From the IMG/VR virus record IMGVR_UViG_2563366903_000021: a stretch of DNA of 12,329 nucleotides; one strand, written 5' to 3'. The stretch is from a virus. Taxonomy: Duplodnaviria; Heunggongvirae; Uroviricota; Caudoviricetes. The translations under genes and the position numbers were made by a program. The notes beneath the pieces are model-generated. The model worked only from the letters and a program-made list of their open reading frames with translations. It was not told where the DNA came from and ran no database searches. Positions 1 to 5,853 of this stretch are shown here, in pieces; positions within the stretch are counted from its first letter, which is position 1, and the number at the start of each line of letters is the position of its first letter.

Positions 1-294
1 GTGGCGCACGTCTTCGGTGAACGCACTCTGGCCACACTGGAGCGTCTTCTGAGCCTGCTGTCGGCCTTTGAGGTCGTGGTATGGATGACGGATGGCTGGC
101 CGCTGTATGAATCACGCCTGAAGGGAAAGCTGCACGTTATCAGCAAGCGTTACACTCAGCGCATTGAGCGACATAATCTGAATCTGAGACAACATCTGGC
201 AAGGCTGGGACGGAAGTCACTGTCGTTCTCAAAATCGGTGGAGCTGCATGACAAGGTCATCGGGCATTATCTGAACATAAAACACTATCAGTAA
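1..294 (+). CDS. insB: IS1 transposase InsB, C-terminal portion (true start is upstream of the window; the GTG at 1 is only the frame entering the window)
   Basis: Translation ...[72 protein letters not shown] is the recognisable InsB C-terminus; stop TAA at 292-294 lies inside the IS1 right end. Confidence 0.9.
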
Positions 295-966: not shown

Positions 967-1185
967 CTCACAATTCCACAGCTTGATGATTGTCTGGCTG
1001 CCGGAGAATTTGTTAAAAATTACATCGCGTGGTGAATCCCCCTCAGCGGCGGGGCATCTGGCAAAGTGTATGATCCAGCGAACATGCAAATTCAGTAGCC
1101 AGGCTGAATTTACCGGGAGGCACCTGGCACCATGCGACAGACAGAAATTAGGCTATACTTCAGCCCCTCTCCGGAGGGGCTTTTC
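967..1185 (+). repeat. Tandem paralogous module, copy A (promoter-like 5' block, conserved internal hairpin, intrinsic terminator); candidate small RNA or vestigial late-promoter/terminator unit
   Basis: Shares with copy B the blocks ctcacaattc, gattgtctggc...tttgttaaaaa, ggtgaatccccct[hairpin]ggggcat, accgggaggcacc(c/t)tg(g)caccatgc and an identical terminal hairpin cagcccctctccggaggggcttt. No reading frame is conserved between the copies. Confidence 0.6.
1163..1185 (+). terminator. Intrinsic terminator closing copy A
   Basis: gcccctc (1163-1169), loop tccg, gaggggc (1174-1180), then TTTT (1181-1184). Confidence 0.7.
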
Positions 1186-1374
1186 TGTGCAGGATGTGTC
1201 ACAGTTTCCTGAATTCTGAGTACTGTCCTGTTACTCAGGGTGCTATATTTTCTGACGTGATGAAAGTCTGCCGGAAGGCGGAACGTATCGGAAATGACCC
1301 AGTAGAGAAAACGTTGACTCAGATACCGATGCTGAGTTACCGGGAAACCGGCATCACATGACCGCTATCCTTCC

Positions 1375-1706: not shown

Positions 1707-1906
1707 GGCAAGGAATAAACAACAAAACGTGAAGTGATCAATTTTCAGCTGGCGAATAATACCCGACAGTAATCACTCTGCGCAACTGTATGGTCTTTTT
1801 CGTATTGCGGGCTGTAGTCATCCTCCTGTTTCTGAACCCTTGTCCATGACTGACGTCAGCCCGCACCTTATCTTGATTGCATACACTATCCCTGCCGGGA
1901 GGAATA

Positions 1907-3880
1907 ATGGCATTTAAACACTATGACGTGGTCAGGGCATCATCGCCGTCAGACCTCGCAGGAAAACTGACGCAAAAACTGAAGGAAGGCTGGCAACCCT
2001 ATGGTAGTCCGATTATCTCAAACGCGGGTTATGGTGCTGAATTTATCCAGGCTATAGTCGCTGAAGGGGATATGACCTCTCCGGTAGTTTCACCGGGGGG
2101 AGATGGTACCCGGACTGTTGTTGTTGAACCAGAATATTACTTTGTCATTGCGCTGGCCGGACAGTCAAACGGCATGGCGTATGGTGAAGGTCTGCCGCTG
2201 CCGGAGACATATGACCGTCCGGACCCGCGTATTAAACAGCTGGCGCGTCGCAGTACGGTGACACCGGGTGGTGCGGCCTGTGCATATAACGACATCATTC
2301 CGGCGGACCACTGCCTGCATGATGTGCAGGATTTGAGCCGTTTTTCTCATCCGAAAGCCAGCGCAGAGCAGTATGGGTGTGTCGGACAGGGATTGCATAT
2401 TGCCAAAAAGCTGTTGCCCTTTATGCCGGAAAATGCGGGTATTTTGTTAGTGCCGTGCTGTCGTGGTGGCTCTGCGTTTACAGCCGGTGCTGACGGAACG
2501 TTCAGTGAAAGTTCAGGAGCGTCGGATAAATCTGAACGATGGGGCGTTGATAAGCCGTTGTATAAAGACCTGCTGACACGCACTCAGGCCGCGCTGAAGG
2601 CAAACCCCAAAAACATACTGCTTTGTGTTGTCTGGATGCAGGGCGAGTTTGATTTAAAACAGGGAGCGTACGCCAGTCAGCCCGCCATGTTTGATGCCAT
2701 GGTGGAAAAATACCGTTCTGACCTGGCGGGAGTATCCGGTCAGTGCGCTGGTGCTTCTCCTTCTCTGGTGCCCTGGATTTGTGGTGACACGACGTACTAC
2801 TGGAAGGAGACGTATTCAGCGCAATACGATGCCGTCTATGGCGCATACAAAACCAAAGCCGGTAAAAATATCTTCTTTGTGCCGTTTATGATGGATGACA
2901 ATGGTCAGAAAGTCGGGACCAATGAACCGTCAGAAGACCCGGATATTCCGGCTATCGGGTATTATGGTTCCGGTGGACGAACGGATGCGAAGAGCTGGAC
3001 AACATCCGATCGTAAAACCCACTTTGGTTCATGGGCGCGTCGCGGAATTATTTCCGACCGTCTGGCAACAGCCATTCTTCTGCATGTGGGCAGAGTGGCA
3101 GATTTTGTTTCCGGGAAAGTGACAAAAGCCGCGGTTTCTTCAGGCGGAGGCGTATCGCAACCAGCACAGGAGAGTGGCGATACTCAGCCTGAATCCGTTG
3201 TCCCGACAAAGATACAGTCAGTGCTGGCTTATGATGCGAATGCGGAAAATGCCGATCTGGCTTCGCAGGGCTGGACGCTGACAGATGTCAAAAACACGCT
3301 GGTCAGTGACAGTGGTTCAGGTAAAAAAGCCCTTCGTCTTGAAAAACCAGAAAATGGTCTTGCACAGAAAAAGACCTGGAAAGTATCGCACGCAATTGAT
3401 GCCGGTAAGGGGAAGGAGCTGTTCGATAACGGCGGTGAAATCACGCTGCGCTTTAAAATCCCCGATGATGTATCTCTCAATGCTTCTGCAAATCAATATT
3501 CTGCGGGTATTTACTGGCGCGGTAGTGGATGGCCGGGAGCGGAATCAGAGGAGGGTTATATTGCGGCCTTCTATCTGCAGACTGATAAAACAAACATCAA
3601 TGTGATGTATCATGCAAACACCACATCACAGCGGCTTGGTAGTTATGGTCCGTTCGATCACGACTGGCACACGCTGACTTTCCGCTTCCCGGGTGGTGGC
3701 TCGCTGAACGTCACGCCGGTGCTTGATAATGCAGCAGGAAAACCGTTTACGCTGACCAGATGGACGAATGCAGCCTTTGAGGCCAACGCGCTGGCAATTA
3801 CGGATATTACCGGAAATGCGGCAACTTACCCTGTGCTGATTGAAAGTCTTACTGTTGGTGTGAATGCCGTAGCAGCATAA
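1907..3880 (+). CDS. nanS-p: Prophage-encoded sialate O-acetylesterase, NanS-p family (SGNH/SASA esterase with C-terminal carbohydrate-binding-like region)
   Basis: 657-aa ORF starting at ATG 1907 (GGGAGG at 1897-1902); the ORF-track start at 1877 has no SD. N-terminus MAFKHYDVVRASSPSDLAGKL resembles the small N-terminal domain of EHEC prophage NanS-p proteins (DUF1737 by memory). GQSN esterase motif (FVIALAGQSNGMAYGE) is encoded at 2159-2170. Position just upstream of the lysis cassette matches where nanS-p morons sit in Stx and related lambdoid prophages. Confidence 0.85.
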   Translation: MAFKHYDVVRASSPSDLAGKLTQKLKEGWQPYGSPIISNAGYGAEFIQAIVAEGDMTSPVVSPGGDGTRTVVVEPEYYFVIALAGQSNGMAYGEGLPLPETYDRPDPRIKQLARRSTVTPGGAACAYNDIIPADHCLHDVQDLSRFSHPKASAEQYGCVGQGLHIAKKLLPFMPENAGILLVPCCRGGSAFTAGADGTFSESSGASDKSERWGVDKPLYKDLLTRTQAALKANPKNILLCVVWMQGEFDLKQGAYASQPAMFDAMVEKYRSDLAGVSGQCAGASPSLVPWICGDTTYYWKETYSAQYDAVYGAYKTKAGKNIFFVPFMMDDNGQKVGTNEPSEDPDIPAIGYYGSGGRTDAKSWTTSDRKTHFGSWARRGIISDRLATAILLHVGRVADFVSGKVTKAAVSSGGGVSQPAQESGDTQPESVVPTKIQSVLAYDANAENADLASQGWTLTDVKNTLVSDSGSGKKALRLEKPENGLAQKKTWKVSHAIDAGKGKELFDNGGEITLRFKIPDDVSLNASANQYSAGIYWRGSGWPGAESEEGYIAAFYLQTDKTNINVMYHANTTSQRLGSYGPFDHDWHTLTFRFPGGGSLNVTPVLDNAAGKPFTLTRWTNAAFEANALAITDITGNAATYPVLIESLTVGVNAVAA

Positions 3881-3886
3881 CAGACG

Positions 3887-3922
3887 AAAAAAACCGCCAG
3901 CAACAGGAATGGAGACTGGCGG
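3887..3922 (-). terminator. Possible intrinsic terminator oriented for leftward transcription, just 3' of nanS-p
   Basis: On the + strand A7 (3887-3893) precedes hairpin ccgccag/ctggcgg (3894-3900/3916-3922) with a 15-nt loop; on the - strand this is hairpin plus T7. The large loop lowers confidence. Confidence 0.4.
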
Positions 3923-4020
3923 AGGTAATCCCAATGGAGAATCTAACGAAAGGATGCTTTCGACATCAATCATTTCTAAATGAAAACAGTTCTCATTGTC
4001 AACAGTAACGGTAATAAACC

Positions 4021-4215
4021 ATGACATTCATCAACCAGTTAATGCTGTACTTCTGTACGGTGGTCTGTGTGTTGTATCTGCTTTCGGGTGGATACAGGGC
4101 AGTACGCGACTTCTGGCGCAGACAGATTGACAAAAGGGCCGCTGAGAAAATCAGCGCCACTCAGTCAGCCGGAGCAAAAACAGAAGCCCCACTCATTCCG
4201 GAACAACCTTCTTAA
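4021..4215 (+). CDS. Hypothetical small membrane protein (64 aa, one N-terminal TM helix)
   Basis: ORF MTFINQLMLYFCTVVCVLYLLSGGYRAVRDFWRRQIDKRAAEK... has a hydrophobic N-terminus and basic/polar tail. No clear SD before 4021, so start and reality are uncertain. Confidence 0.4.
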   Translation: MTFINQLMLYFCTVVCVLYLLSGGYRAVRDFWRRQIDKRAAEKISATQSAGAKTEAPLIPEQPS

Positions 4216-4240
4216 TAACCCCTTTCAACGAGAAAATCTC

Positions 4241-4531
4241 ATGACAGATATAAAACAACTGGTCACTGCTGAGGCAGTGAAGGAAGTCATTCGCTCTGAA
4301 GAAGTCAGAAGCGTCCTGAAACAAAAACTCCGCCAGAATCTGGGAGAGCGTCTTGATGCAGAAGTGGATTCAATTCTGGATGAATTGCTTGGTGCACAGC
4401 CGGAACCATCCCCGGAACTGCTTCCGGAACCACAGGCGGAAGATGTCACCACGGAAAATGGTGATATTCAGCCGGAGTCACCGGTGACGGATATGACAGA
4501 CACACAACCCGAACCGGGCACAATGCTGTAA
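4241..4531 (+). CDS. Hypothetical acidic, Pro/Glu-rich protein (96 aa)
   Basis: ATG at 4241 with a weak SD (gagaaaa). Translation MTDIKQLVTAEAVKEVIRSEEVRSVLKQKLRQNLGERLDAEVDSILDELL... ends in a PEPxPE low-complexity tail. The ORF-track start at 4067 overlaps the preceding ORF and is rejected. Confidence 0.55.
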   Translation: MTDIKQLVTAEAVKEVIRSEEVRSVLKQKLRQNLGERLDAEVDSILDELLGAQPEPSPELLPEPQAEDVTTENGDIQPESPVTDMTDTQPEPGTML

Positions 4532-4542
4532 CGGCGGGGCAG

Positions 4543-4575
4543 GGCCATCAGTAAAACACTGATGGCCTTTTTTAT
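4543..4575 (+). terminator. Strong intrinsic terminator between the 4241-4531 ORF and the holin gene
   Basis: Perfect 10-bp stem ggccatcagt/actgatggcc (4543-4552/4558-4567), loop aaaac, then TTTTTTATTT. Confidence 0.75.
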
Positions 4576-5361: not shown

Positions 5362-5453
5362 GCAGAATATTTTGCTGAAAAATGCGGTTTGCTCACACGG
5401 ACGGATAACACGAAATCCTGCGAACTGACAAAAACTAAGTGAATAAAAGTAAA

Positions 5454-5490
5454 AACCCCGTTTGTTGGCTGCAAGCGGGGTTTTGTGTTT
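5454..5490 (+). terminator. Terminator-like hairpin after the endolysin gene
   Basis: aaccccg (5454-5460) ... cggggtt (5476-5482) with a 15-nt loop, followed by ttttgtgttt. The large loop makes efficiency uncertain; it could also act on the - strand. Confidence 0.35.
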
Positions 5491-5517
5491 CTGACCTTGG
5501 ATAAGGCAAGGGAGAAC

Positions 5518-5700
5518 ATGGAAAAGTATAAACGAATTCTGTTGAGGTTGACTATGAAAAACGGCCTTGAACTGAAAGCGCCTGTAACTGATGACATCAG
5601 CAGAGCACTGGCTTTTGCCATTAAGTGGGTGGCGGTCGGTGTTGCTGTGTCCCCGATGCTGTATGGGCTGGCAAAACTGGTCATTGCGTTGAAATCGTGA
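5518..5700 (+). CDS. Hypothetical small tail-anchored membrane protein (60 aa) inserted in the lysis cassette
   Basis: ATG 5518 preceded by AAGGGAGA. MEKYKRILLRLTMKNGLELKAPVTDDISRALAFAIKWVAVGVAVSPMLYGLAKLVIALKS has a polar/basic N-terminus and one C-terminal TM helix. The ORF-track start (GTG 5485) lies in the upstream T-tract and is rejected. Confidence 0.5.
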   Translation: MEKYKRILLRLTMKNGLELKAPVTDDISRALAFAIKWVAVGVAVSPMLYGLAKLVIALKS

Positions 5701-5714
5701 AGGGAGGATTAAGC

Positions 5715-5846
5715 ATGTCAGACAAACTCATAACGCTGGCGAAGATCCTCTGTGTAATTGTCGGCATTTCATTTTCACTCATGCTGGTTGCCATTTTCTT
5801 TTCCACCGCCTGGCGAGTCCTGACGTTATCGGGACTGGTGGGGTGA
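5715..5846 (+). CDS. Hypothetical small hydrophobic membrane peptide (43 aa) inserted in the lysis cassette
   Basis: ATG 5715 with a strong SD GGGAGG (5702-5707) at 7-nt spacing. [43 protein letters not shown] is almost entirely one or two TM segments. Start is 14 nt after the previous stop; its stop is 7 nt before the Rz start. Confidence 0.55.
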
Positions 5847-5853
5847 AAGAGAG

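What the first reader, a model, noticed from the sequence alone, without database searches (positions are those of the whole stretch)
4021..4575. Two unknown small ORFs with their own strong terminator between nanS-p and the holin
A 64-aa putative membrane protein and a 96-aa highly acidic Pro/Glu-rich protein sit between the esterase moron and the lysis genes, closed by a perfect 10-bp-stem terminator (4543-4575). This moron slot in lambdoid phages often carries accessory or defence cargo. The acidic tail could mimic nucleic acid or be an intrinsically disordered interaction domain. Function unknown.
Basis: partly seen in the sequence, partly recalled or inferred. Interest (0 to 1): 0.4.

Follow-up and report, generated by a model that had tools for sequence, protein, structure and literature searches.

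The report
Two conserved small prophage cargo genes
The two small genes are real and conserved, but they are the already catalogued, function-unknown families DUF1378 (a tiny membrane protein) and DUF826 (an acidic helical protein) that ride along with a phage sialic-acid esterase gene in E. coli prophages.

Summary
ORF1 (4021-4215, 64 aa) is Pfam DUF1378. ORF2 (4241-4531, 96 aa) is DUF826. The hairpin at 4541-4575 is a strong terminator. Both ORFs are under purifying selection (pN/pS 0.1-0.6). The longer 134-154 aa annotations of ORF2 are not supported.

The pair is nearly identical in phage PhiR12_3 and occurs in about 19% of complete E. coli genomes. The 933W L0106 region and Sakai ECs1210/ECs1211 are orthologues. 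No function has been published.

New context:
- The order esterase (nanS-p), convergent sRNA-like element, DUF1378, DUF826 recurs in two unrelated backbones: 933W-like lambdoid prophages and Mu-like prophages. The small genes stay under selection in both.
- Each part can also occur alone. DUF1378 closes the lysis cassette, overlapping the stop codon of the (putative) Rz-type spanin gene, in a Lonsdalea prophage and a Stenotrophomonas phage.
- A homologous terminator sits before the holin in E2348/69, which lacks both ORFs, and no terminator-like site follows DUF826 in the one Mu-like locus scanned. It is therefore the pre-lysis-cassette terminator rather than the pair's own.

Structure models give one long helix (membrane span plus basic cytoplasmic part) for DUF1378, and one long acidic helix plus a disordered tail for DUF826.

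Best guess, at low confidence: a membrane-tethered pair that tunes lysis. Known families, moderate interest.

The parts
4021..4215 (+). DUF1378 gene (64 aa). Predicted bitopic inner-membrane protein: N-terminal transmembrane helix, basic cytoplasmic helix, short disordered tail.
   Evidence: Pfam PF07125 E 7e-36 and phrog_494. pN/pS 0.11-0.41 in this frame. AlphaFold2 gives one continuous helix over residues 2-51. Best 19-residue hydropathy window is residues 3-21, with 7 Lys/Arg in residues 25-45. Invariant residues include L9, F11, L18-Y19-L20 and G23-G24-Y25.
4241..4531 (+). DUF826 gene (96 aa from the ATG). Acidic soluble protein: short helix, one long amphipathic helix (residues 20-49), then a disordered Pro/Glu-rich tail ending in hydrophobic residues (TML).
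   Evidence: Pfam PF05696 E 5e-24 over residues 1-57, and phrog_311. pN/pS is 0.16-0.59 for the N-terminal domain and 0.33-0.49 for the tail. AlphaFold2 pLDDT exceeds 90 for about residues 20-50 and is below 50 for most of the tail (59-91, 94-96). The homologous ATG carries an AGGAGG Shine-Dalgarno sequence in Mu-like copies. The C-terminal TML/MML/MMM is conserved.
4067..4240 (+). Upstream open extension of the ORF2 frame, overlapping ORF1. It is annotated as part of the gene by PGAP (TTG 4127, 134 aa) and in 933W (L0106, 148 aa). It is not coding.
   Evidence: pN/pS is 0.9-2.4 in this frame, like the control frame. One locus (L018) has an in-frame stop 29 codons upstream of the ATG. The proteins that look like DUF1378-DUF826 fusions (P0034, P0061) are singleton frameshift chimeras.
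4541..4575 (+). Intrinsic terminator hairpin plus T tract, 33 nt upstream of the holin start. Best read as the terminator that closes off the cargo region before the lysis cassette.
   Evidence: Scan hit with 12 pairs followed by TTTTATTT. Folding energy -22.3 kcal/mol, z -4.2. Across 8 variants, 93.8% of cells are paired and 2 pairs have compensatory changes, while slid controls give 26-68%. A homologous hairpin is present in E2348/69 PP2, which lacks both ORFs. No terminator-like site follows DUF826 in the Mu-like copy scanned.
3887..4001 (-). Neighbouring element, not in the finding: a putative convergent small RNA gene between nanS-p and ORF1. It has a -35 TTGACA (4001 to 3996), a TAGAAA-like -10, a 5' hairpin, a single-stranded stretch containing CCUCC, and a hairpin plus U7 terminator (3927 to 3887).
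   Evidence: Read from the sequence and folded. The alignment with PasA and PasC of E2348/69 shows the same position, orientation and architecture. L043 carries a compensatory stem change. PasA and PasC are Hfq-dependent sRNAs lying just 3' of the esterase on the opposite strand (PMC8550237 Table S6; preprint 10.64898/2026.05.13.724894). blastn with PasA itself does not reach 933W-type phages, so membership is not shown.
1877..3880 (+). nanS-p-type sialate O-acetylesterase gene, the first gene of the recurrent cassette.
   Evidence: DUF1737 + SASA + DUF6645. A homologue at 41-100% identity precedes the pair in every locus where upstream DNA is available and in Mu-like prophages.

Best explanation
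Shown:
- The region holds two genuine protein genes of the known but uncharacterised families DUF1378 and DUF826.
- DUF1378 is a 64-aa protein with a single N-terminal membrane span. By the positive-inside rule its N terminus is outside and its C terminus inside. The helix continues into a basic cytoplasmic segment.
- DUF826 is a 96-aa cytoplasmic protein made of one long acidic amphipathic helix and a disordered Pro/Glu tail that ends in hydrophobic residues.
- They form the distal end of a mobile accessory cassette: nanS-p esterase, a convergent sRNA-like element, DUF1378, DUF826. This cassette sits between the late promoter region and the lysis genes of 933W-like prophages, and at the right end of Mu-like prophages.
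- The hairpin at 4541-4575 is the conserved terminator in front of the holin.

Inferred:
- No promoter of their own was detected. In this prophage they would be read as late genes by Q-antiterminated polymerase, which passes the terminator. Transcription without Q would stop there and spare the cell from S-R-Rz expression.
- The basic cytoplasmic helix of DUF1378 docks the acidic helix of DUF826 at the inner face of the membrane.
- The most likely job of this pair is a non-essential tuning of the lysis programme, for example by engaging the basic cytoplasmic tail of the holin, as an accessory antiholin-like module.

I put about 0.9 on the descriptive part and about 0.25-0.3 on the lysis-tuning role.
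For: Family membership.

Coding status.

Protein models and charge.

Cassette recurrence:
- All lambdoid loci with upstream DNA have the esterase.
- Mu-like prophages carry esterase, DUF1378 and DUF826 between the tail-fibre/Gin region and Com-Mom. Protein P0202 is indexed in 861 blocks of the collection.
- pN/pS is 0.25-0.28 within the Mu-like clade.

Lysis link:
- The pair lies directly 5' of a P21-type holin in this window, in 933W and in the distant locus L069.
- DUF1378 is the last gene of the lysis cassette, with its start overlapping the stop of the upstream putative Rz-type spanin gene (assigned by position and by reading the translated sequences; Pfam gave no Rz match for the BUCT709 ORF), in a Lonsdalea prophage and in Stenotrophomonas phage BUCT709. 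The two cassettes have different holins and lysozymes.
- A tail-less DUF826 lies just after Rz in L067.

Terminator.

No sigma-70-like site on the + strand anywhere between 300 and 5400.
Against: - The Mu-like copies lie far from any lysis gene and are still under selection.
- In Cedecea, DUF1378 follows a tail-fibre gene.
- P21-type lysis cassettes work without the pair in Qin and in E2348/69.
- The sites flanking lysis cassettes are general cargo hot spots in lambdoid phages (PMC4104026), so adjacency alone is weak evidence.
- No direct evidence of translation, of an interaction between the two proteins, or of any phenotype was found in the searchable literature.
- The promoter scan is a simple consensus match and can miss real promoters.
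- The two-protein complex could not be modelled with the tools allowed.
Confidence: 0.45

Rival explanations
1. Esterase accessory factors. The two proteins work with NanS-p, for example by anchoring it to the membrane, releasing it or regulating it. That would explain why they travel with the esterase between unrelated phage backbones.
For: An esterase homologue (41-100% identity) precedes the pair in every lambdoid locus with upstream DNA. The same trio, in the same order, occurs in widespread Mu-like prophages with no lysis genes nearby. The lambdoid and Mu-like versions are anciently diverged (uncorrected pS 0.7-0.85), yet both small genes are kept intact.
Against: Esterases with the same three domains occur without the pair in E2348/69 PP2 and PP5. 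DUF1378 occurs without any esterase in Lonsdalea, BUCT709 and Cedecea. DUF826 occurs alone in L067. The Mu-like esterases lack the DUF1737 domain, so no single esterase domain tracks with the pair.
Confidence: 0.2
2. Lysogenic-conversion or exclusion/defence cargo. A prophage-expressed inner-membrane protein and its partner would block superinfecting phage or otherwise benefit the lysogen.
For: Every context is a cargo slot. The pair shows presence/absence polymorphism and IS disruption. A terminator insulating the lysis genes implies that some Q-independent transcription enters the region. ECs1211 appears on a microarray list from uninduced Sakai cultures (PMC2241611).
Against: No PADLOC family matches. 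No promoter-like site lies between the esterase and ORF1. DUF1378 has almost no periplasmic part (3 residues), which is unlike most exclusion proteins. In two phages it overlaps the stop codon of the upstream (putative) Rz-type spanin gene, which makes it a late gene there.
Confidence: 0.2
3. The acidic tail of DUF826 mimics nucleic acid, giving an anti-restriction or DNA-binding-protein decoy in the manner of Ocr or ArdA.
For: Net charge is about -14 and pI is 4.07, and the tail has no basic residue.
Against: The tail is predicted to be disordered, with pLDDT below 50, rather than a rigid charge-patterned fold. Its sequence and length vary, and some family members lack it altogether. The gene lies in the late region, whereas anti-restriction proteins are needed at entry. 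No solved structure matches by sequence or by fold.
Confidence: 0.05
4. The true product is a longer protein: either the 134-154 aa ORF from TTG 4127 or GTG 4067, or a DUF1378-DUF826 fusion made by +1 ribosomal frameshifting at AAA-AGG (4132-4137).
For: PGAP and the 933W record annotate the long form. The ORF2 frame is open for 62-70 codons upstream in 34 of 35 loci. phrog_8301 and two database proteins combine both families. A Lys codon is followed by a rare AGG codon in an A4G3 run.
Against: The extension evolves like a non-coding frame, with pN/pS 0.9-2.4. L018 has a stop inside it, downstream of the putative shift site. The 'fusions' are singletons that switch frame at different points. 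The Mu-like copies have a canonical Shine-Dalgarno sequence at the short start.
Confidence: 0.03
5. A type I toxin-antitoxin-like unit. DUF1378 would be a small hydrophobic membrane toxin controlled by the adjacent small RNA.
For: DUF1378 is a small single-span protein, and a putative sRNA gene lies 20-130 nt upstream of its start.
Against: The RNA is transcribed away from ORF1 and does not overlap its ribosome-binding site. Reading the sequence by hand gives only 6 nt of complementarity to that site. The equivalent sRNAs, PasA and PasC, exist without DUF1378 and have many trans targets (PMC8550237). DUF1378 occurs without such an RNA in lysis cassettes.
Confidence: 0.04

Closest known systems
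Pfam DUF1378 (PF07125) / PHROG 494; orthologues Sakai ECs1210 (H0119) and the 5' part of the region annotated as 933W L0106
   Same: Full-length match at 122.6 bits. The gene has the same length, the same N-terminal membrane span and the same position upstream of the holin. Identity to the 933W copy is 86%.
   Different: Nothing substantive. This allele carries a 4-5 residue longer C-terminal tail.
Pfam DUF826 (PF05696) / PHROG 311; orthologues Sakai ECs1211 (H0120) and the 3' part of 933W L0106
   Same: The N-terminal 57 residues match at 84.6 bits, with the same gene order. The tail is acidic with the same hydrophobic C terminus.
   Different: The tail is longer here (46 residues) and differs in sequence from the 933W type. 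Overall identity is about 62-65%. This allele has G35 where near-identical relatives have E35.
T4 RI / RIII antiholins (a working analogy recalled from knowledge, not a test)
   Same: A small membrane-anchored protein and a small cytoplasmic helical protein that together act on a holin.
   Different: RI acts through a periplasmic domain, while DUF1378 has essentially none. The pair is not always next to a holin.
Classical moron (promoter, gene, terminator inserted in a late operon; Juhala et al. 2000, as cited in PMC4104026)
   Same: The pair is inserted between conserved backbone genes downstream of pR'. It is present in some prophages and absent in others, and a terminator lies at its 3' end.
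   Different: No promoter was detected. The terminator is shared with prophages that lack the genes. The unit of mobility appears to be the larger esterase cassette.
K-12 YdfR (Qin prophage), reported to bind the catalytic half of RNase E (PMC13232886)
   Same: A small prophage protein encoded inside a P21-type lysis cassette.
   Different: YdfR is DUF1327, not DUF826. BLASTP finds no alignment between it and ORF2. The lead came from my memory and was wrong.
PasA / PasC sRNAs of EPEC E2348/69 (for the neighbouring minus-strand element only)
   Same: Same slot just 3' of the esterase, same opposite-strand orientation, a size of about 80 nt, a TTGACA -35, and a GCCAGC...GCTGGC hairpin followed by a U run.
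   Different: Sequence similarity is confined to the terminator and a few motifs. An extra segment of about 20 nt is present. blastn with PasA does not find 933W-type phages.

Membership tests
Pfam DUF1378 (PF07125) | Score above the curated gathering threshold over the whole model | tested here: met
   122.6 bits against a cut-off of 25. Protein residues 1-59 match model positions 1-59 of 59.
Pfam DUF1378 (PF07125) | Single N-terminal hydrophobic helix followed by a basic segment, with the conserved LYF and SGGY motifs | tested here: met
   Hydropathy and charge counts, invariant alignment columns and an AlphaFold2 helix over residues 2-51.
Pfam DUF826 (PF05696) | Score above the curated gathering threshold | tested here: met
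   84.6 bits against a cut-off of 25. Protein residues 1-57 match model positions 1-59 of 75.
Intrinsic (Rho-independent) terminator | G+C-rich hairpin immediately followed by a U tract | tested here: met
   12-pair stem, 5-nt loop and a T6ATTT tail. Folding energy -22.3 kcal/mol, z -4.2.
Intrinsic (Rho-independent) terminator | Structure conserved across relatives | tested here: met
   93.8% of cells are paired and 2 pairs show compensatory changes in 8 variants. Slid controls give 26-68%.
Intrinsic (Rho-independent) terminator | Stops RNA polymerase in vivo and is read through by Q-modified polymerase | not testable with these tools
   This needs transcript 3'-end mapping in lysogens with and without Q.
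Moron (self-contained cargo transcription unit) | Own promoter upstream of the cargo gene | tested here: not met
   No sigma-70-like site on the + strand between 300 and 5400. The scan is a simple consensus match, so a weak or non-canonical promoter is not excluded.
Moron (self-contained cargo transcription unit) | Presence/absence polymorphism between otherwise collinear phages | tested here: met
   E2348/69 PP2 and PP5 have esterase then holin without the pair.
Moron (self-contained cargo transcription unit) | Terminator that belongs to the cargo | tested here: not met
   A homologous terminator is present where the cargo is absent. No terminator-like site follows DUF826 in the Mu-like copy scanned.
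Holin / antiholin-type lysis regulators | Small protein with at least one membrane span and a charged cytoplasmic C terminus, encoded in or next to a lysis cassette | tested here: inconclusive
   The physical features are met for DUF1378. The gene lies next to lysis genes in lambdoid, Lonsdalea and BUCT709 contexts, but not in Mu-like prophages.
Holin / antiholin-type lysis regulators | Changes lysis timing when deleted or overexpressed | not testable with these tools
   An experiment is required.
Known anti-phage defence systems (PADLOC-DB 2.0) | Match to a defence-protein model | tested here: not met
   No family matches either protein at E up to 1.
DNA-mimic proteins (Ocr/ArdA type) | Rigid folded scaffold displaying patterned negative charge | tested here: not met
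   The acidic tail is modelled as disordered (pLDDT below 50 over most of it), the folded part is a single helix, and no PDB match appears by sequence or fold.
DUF1327 / YdfR (RNase E-binding Qin protein) | Sequence similarity to YdfR | tested here: not met
   BLASTP finds no alignment at E up to 100. YdfR matches PF07041 only.

The most novel reading that the evidence does not exclude
DUF1378 and DUF826 form a previously unrecognised two-component, membrane-tethered module. It either sets holin triggering time from the cytoplasmic side, as a lambdoid counterpart of T4 RI/RIII-type lysis inhibition, or mediates non-lytic handling of the signal-peptide-less NanS-p esterase. It would be wired together with a convergent Hfq-type sRNA into one mobile cassette shared by lambdoid and Mu-like prophages of pathogenic E. 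coli, so that it influences the timing of phage-mediated lysis and of whatever that lysis releases.
Probability: 0.15. Interest if true: 0.6.

Novelty: already known. Interest (0 to 1): 0.3.

Why it matters
These two genes sit directly upstream of the lysis genes in Stx-converting and related prophages, downstream of stx where it is present. They occur in about a fifth of complete E. coli genomes, often in several copies, and nobody knows what they do.

If they tune lysis timing or the fate of the NanS-p esterase, they would bear on the timing of phage-mediated lysis and of whatever it releases, and on how phage enzymes that unlock mucus sialic acids reach their substrate.

The practical gains from this check are modest:
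- The correct gene boundaries. Public records variously call ORF2 'head completion protein', a 134-aa protein or a 148-aa protein.
- The recognition that the unit to study is a four-part cassette that moves between lambdoid and Mu-like prophages.
- The reassignment of the terminator to the lysis cassette boundary.

Tried and rejected
1. YdfR/RNase E lead. I recalled YdfR as a DUF826 protein and found a 2026 paper showing that it binds RNase E. Testing showed YdfR is DUF1327 and unrelated to ORF2, so I dropped it.

2. Long ORF or +1 frameshift fusion at AAA-AGG. Rejected on pN/pS, on a stop codon in L018 and on the nature of the 'fusion' proteins.

3. Defence-system, NCBIfam and solved-structure searches gave nothing significant (only chance-level hits at E about 0.1-1). 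A Foldseek search of the DUF826 model against the PDB gave no match.

4. Exhaustive profile search for distant DUF826 relatives. It found only 52 hits among 1.84 billion representative proteins, all short proteins of the same kind or chance matches in long repetitive proteins. It gave no functional anchor.

An alignment of distant DUF826 members was too divergent for the locus scan.

6. The 50-aa acidic ORF after DUF1378 in Lonsdalea is not a DUF826 relative (hhalign probability 0.2%).

7. Esr41 and AsxR as the identity of the neighbouring minus-strand RNA. Esr41 lies in SpLE1, AsxR lies 3' of stx2B, and there is no Rfam hit in 3881-4020.

8. A link between the pair and a particular esterase domain architecture. 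There is none.

9. The 'head completion protein' label on ORF2 in PhiR12 records is not supported by the Pfam, NCBIfam or PHROG results.

10. I could not model a DUF1378-DUF826 complex, because only window sequences or database proteins may be submitted.
Full report
OBSERVATION

The window carries, on the + strand, a 64-codon ORF at 4021-4215 and a 96-codon ORF from ATG 4241 to 4531. A terminator follows: the scan reports a 12-pair stem at 4541-4569 and a T-rich tail. It folds at -22.3 kcal/mol, z = -4.2, and none of 200 shuffles folds as well.

ORF1 has one strongly hydrophobic span (residues 3-21 and a little beyond), no charge before it and 7 Lys/Arg in the 21 residues after it. Its pI is 9.2. 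ORF2 has pI 4.07 and 22 Asp/Glu. Its last 46 residues hold 11 Asp/Glu, 9 Pro and no basic residue.

ARE THEY GENES, AND WHERE DO THEY START?

ORF1 matches Pfam DUF1378 end to end (122.6 bits, cut-off 25). ORF2 matches DUF826 over its first 57 residues (84.6 bits, cut-off 25). The PHROG equivalents, 494 and 311, are both labelled 'unknown function'.

I aligned 35 distinct homologous loci from viral contigs and annotated records. Both ORFs are intact in all of them, with the same start codons.

Nei-Gojobori counts against seven relatives gave the following:
- ORF1 in its own frame: pN/pS 0.11-0.41.
- ORF2 helical domain: 0.16-0.59.
- ORF2 tail: 0.33-0.49.
- The other frames: about 1-5.

The frame of ORF2 stays open for 62-70 codons upstream in 34 of 35 loci. 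This is why PGAP annotates a 134-aa protein from TTG 4127 and the 933W record a 148-aa L0106. That extension evolves like non-coding sequence (pN/pS 0.9-2.4, the same as the control frame), and L018 has a stop inside it. In Mu-like copies the homologous ATG is preceded by AGGAGG. The real start is therefore ATG 4241.

Two database proteins and PHROG 8301 appear to fuse the two families. The two proteins are singletons that change frame part-way, so they are frameshift chimeras. I considered a programmed +1 shift at AAA-AGG (4132-4137) and rejected it for the same reasons.

HOW KNOWN ARE THEY?

The 740 bases around the pair are 99.9% identical in Escherichia phage PhiR12_3 and in several E. coli chromosomes. 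The region matches 306 phage records, mostly Stx-converting phages, and 1025 of 5426 complete E. coli genomes, with a median of two copies and up to seven. RefSeq already labels the genes 'DUF1378 family protein' and 'DUF826 domain-containing protein'.

The orthologues are Sakai ECs1210/ECs1211 (H0119/H0120) and the region annotated as L0106 in 933W.

Both families are narrow:
- The word-indexed searches returned only E. coli and Shigella clusters.
- An exhaustive profile search for DUF826 found 52 hits among 1.84 billion representative proteins.
- A scan of one genome per species found DUF1378 only in Cedecea neteri and Lonsdalea britannica.

The searchable literature mentions the two families by name only in passing, as unknown ORFs between nanS-p and S (PMC10462455). 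ECs1211 appears on one microarray list (PMC2241611). I found no functional study.

A WRONG LEAD, TESTED

I recalled K-12 YdfR as a DUF826 protein and found a 2026 paper showing that YdfR binds the catalytic half of RNase E and co-purifies RNA (PMC13232886). On testing, YdfR is DUF1327 and has no detectable similarity to ORF2. The paper does not apply.

WHAT THE PROTEINS LOOK LIKE

AlphaFold2 with shallow alignments models DUF1378 as one continuous helix over residues 2-51 with a disordered end (mean pLDDT 71). It models DUF826 as a short helix (10-17), a long helix (20-49, pLDDT above 90) and a disordered tail (pLDDT below 50 for residues 59-91 and 94-96). No solved structure matches by sequence or by fold.

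In DUF1378, invariant residues run through the membrane span (L9, F11, L18-Y19-L20, G23-G24-Y25). This suggests sequence-specific packing in the membrane rather than a mere anchor. By the positive-inside rule the three N-terminal residues face the periplasm and the basic helix faces the cytoplasm (inference).

In DUF826 the tail varies in length and sequence, and some members lack it. Where present it usually ends in TML, MML, MMM or TTL.

The basic cytoplasmic helix of DUF1378 and the acidic helix of DUF826 are electrostatically complementary. That they bind each other is an inference I could not test.

GENOMIC CONTEXT, THE MAIN NEW INFORMATION

1. In every lambdoid locus where upstream DNA was available, a nanS-p homologue precedes the pair, although the esterases themselves are only 41-64% identical in many cases. 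A P21-type holin follows. A distant lambdoid locus (L069) has the same order.

2. The same trio, in the same order, lies at the right end of Mu-like prophages of E. coli, between the tail-fibre/Gin region and Com-Mom, far from lysis genes. One such DUF1378 protein is indexed in 861 blocks of the collection. The Mu-like versions are 48% (DUF1378) and 41% (DUF826) identical to those of the window, with synonymous sites near saturation. Within the Mu-like clade both genes still show pN/pS of 0.25-0.28. Both are therefore kept by selection away from a lysis cassette.

3. The links are facultative:
   - E2348/69 prophages PP2 and PP5 have the esterase, with the same three domains, followed by the holin without the pair.
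   - DUF1378 alone closes the lysis cassette, with its start overlapping the stop of the upstream spanin-like gene, in a Lonsdalea prophage and in Stenotrophomonas phage BUCT709. The two have different holins and lysozymes. I assigned these upstream ORFs as Rz-type by position and sequence reading; Pfam gave no Rz match for the BUCT709 ORF and the Lonsdalea ORFs were not scanned.
   - DUF1378 alone follows a tail-fibre gene in a Cedecea Mu-like prophage.
   - A tail-less DUF826 alone lies between Rz and Nu1 in L067.
   - IS elements truncate the pair in some copies.

All of these positions are cargo slots of temperate phages. Those in lambdoid phages always flank the lysis cassette.

THE TERMINATOR

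The hairpin is conserved in all variants. It is weaker elsewhere: position 6 of the stem is U:A here, U:G or U:C in others, and the T tract is shorter.

A homologous hairpin plus T run sits at the same distance upstream of the holin in E2348/69 PP2, which lacks both ORFs. Across eight variants, 93.8% of cells are paired and two pairs show compensatory changes, against 26-68% for slid controls. In the Mu-like locus I scanned, no terminator-like site lies downstream of DUF826.

The terminator is thus better described as the boundary element in front of S-R-Rz than as the pair's own. Its likely role (inference from lambdoid late-gene regulation) is to stop any transcription that lacks Q modification before it reaches the lysis genes, while Q-modified polymerase reads through.

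No sigma-70-like site was found on the + strand between 300 and 5400. In this prophage the pair is therefore most simply a set of late genes. The scan is crude, however.

A NEIGHBOUR WORTH NOTING

The 140 bases between nanS-p and ORF1 are conserved. Read on the minus strand, they look like a small RNA gene:
- TTGACA at 4001 to 3996, then 17-18 nt, then TTAGAAA.
- A perfect 6-pair 5' hairpin.
- A single-stranded stretch containing CCUCC.
- The hairpin CCGCCAG...CUGGCGG followed by U7, ending near 3887.

Different hairpin sequences occupy this spot in different lineages, always with the A run on the + strand side. L043 shows a compensatory A:U to G:C change.

In E2348/69 this slot holds PasA and PasC. 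These are Hfq-dependent sRNAs of 79-85 nt on the strand opposite to the esterase, verified by Northern blot and RIL-seq (PMC8550237 Table S6; preprint 10.64898/2026.05.13.724894). Convergent sRNAs are a known feature of cargo sites downstream of pR' (PMC4104026).

The window's element shares position, orientation, size, the promoter motif and the terminator style with PasA/PasC. It shares little sequence, and blastn with PasA finds only 29 phages, none of the 933W type. I report it as PasA/PasC-like and not as a member. It explains the strong conservation just upstream of ORF1.

MECHANISM

Shown:
- Two selected protein genes, one encoding a membrane protein and one an acidic helical protein.
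- Recurrent linkage with the esterase in two phage backbones.
- Recurrent placement at lysis-cassette borders.
- A conserved terminator before the holin.

Inferred:
- Late expression by Q read-through.
- Docking of DUF826 on the cytoplasmic helix of DUF1378.
- A role at the inner face of the membrane.

Among specific roles I rank a non-essential tuning of lysis first, at about 0.25-0.3. One possible route is binding of the acidic protein to the basic cytoplasmic tail of the holin. The reason for the ranking is that five independent contexts touch lysis cassettes, and in two of them DUF1378's start overlaps the stop codon of the upstream spanin-like gene.

Second come an accessory role for NanS-p and a benefit to the lysogen such as exclusion, at about 0.2 each.

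A nucleic-acid mimic, a long or fused product and a type I toxin are each unlikely. The Mu-like context is the main argument against the lysis model and the main argument for the esterase model.

VERDICT

The finding is real but already catalogued. The genes are members of DUF1378 and DUF826, nearly identical to annotated genes in a sequenced phage and many genomes, and their function is still unknown. Its framing as an isolated unknown pair with its own terminator needs correction. Interest is moderate to low (0.3). The value lies in corrected gene boundaries and in recognising a four-part cassette shared by lambdoid and Mu-like prophages.

Noticed in passing
window 3887-4001, minus strand: Putative convergent small RNA gene of about 80 nt between nanS-p and ORF1. 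It has a TTGACA -35, a 5' hairpin, a single-stranded CCUCC stretch and a hairpin plus U7 terminator. Position, orientation and architecture match the Hfq-dependent sRNAs PasA and PasC of EPEC E2348/69, but the sequence is largely different, and blastn with PasA does not reach 933W-type phages.
   Followed up: partly
window 997-1190, 1226-1401 (weak) and 1466-1675, + strand; minus-strand hairpin plus T run at 1705 to 1686: Two full and one weak tandem copies of the prophage sRNA family STnc100 (Rfam RF02076; 139.9, 129.9 and 30 bits) lie upstream of nanS-p. This family is related to PasD according to a 2026 preprint. Each copy ends in a + strand terminator-like hairpin, and a convergent minus-strand terminator follows the last copy.
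   Followed up: partly
window 1-294: The window opens inside an IS1 transposase gene (DDE_Tnp_IS1, E 6e-51). The region upstream of the sRNA repeats therefore differs from that of the otherwise near-identical prophage in E. coli G1/2, which carries HsdM/HsdS genes there.
   Followed up: no
L017, L020-L025, L033, L034, L036-L038, L041, L043-L048 (related loci), between the holin and the lysozyme: In many related prophages the holin and lysozyme genes are separated by 400-1300 bp of extra DNA, whereas in this window they are 4 bp apart. This is another cargo slot inside the lysis cassette. I did not examine its contents.
   Followed up: no
L058-L065 and L052 (Mu-like prophages of E. coli): A nanS-p-like esterase that lacks the DUF1737 domain, plus DUF1378 and DUF826, is carried between Gin/tail-fibre genes and Com-Mom in widespread Mu-like prophages. 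One of them is inserted inside an Stx1a phage (LC727895).
   Followed up: partly
window 4241-4531 in public records (PV340552 and relatives; WP_371357008.1; AF125520 L0106): The annotations of ORF2 are inconsistent: 'head completion protein', a 134-aa protein starting at a TTG inside ORF1, and a 148-aa protein that swallows most of ORF1. None is supported by the family searches or by the substitution pattern.
   Followed up: yes
window 4343 (codon 35 of ORF2): This allele has Gly at position 35 of DUF826, where all near-identical relatives but one (L006) have Glu. The position lies inside the confidently modelled long helix.
   Followed up: no
window 5362-5853: The 490 bp between the lysozyme and Rz hold only short ORFs. 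These are annotated as two hypothetical proteins of 60 and 43 aa in the G1/2 genome. 933W carries an antirepressor gene (ant) in this slot.
   Followed up: no
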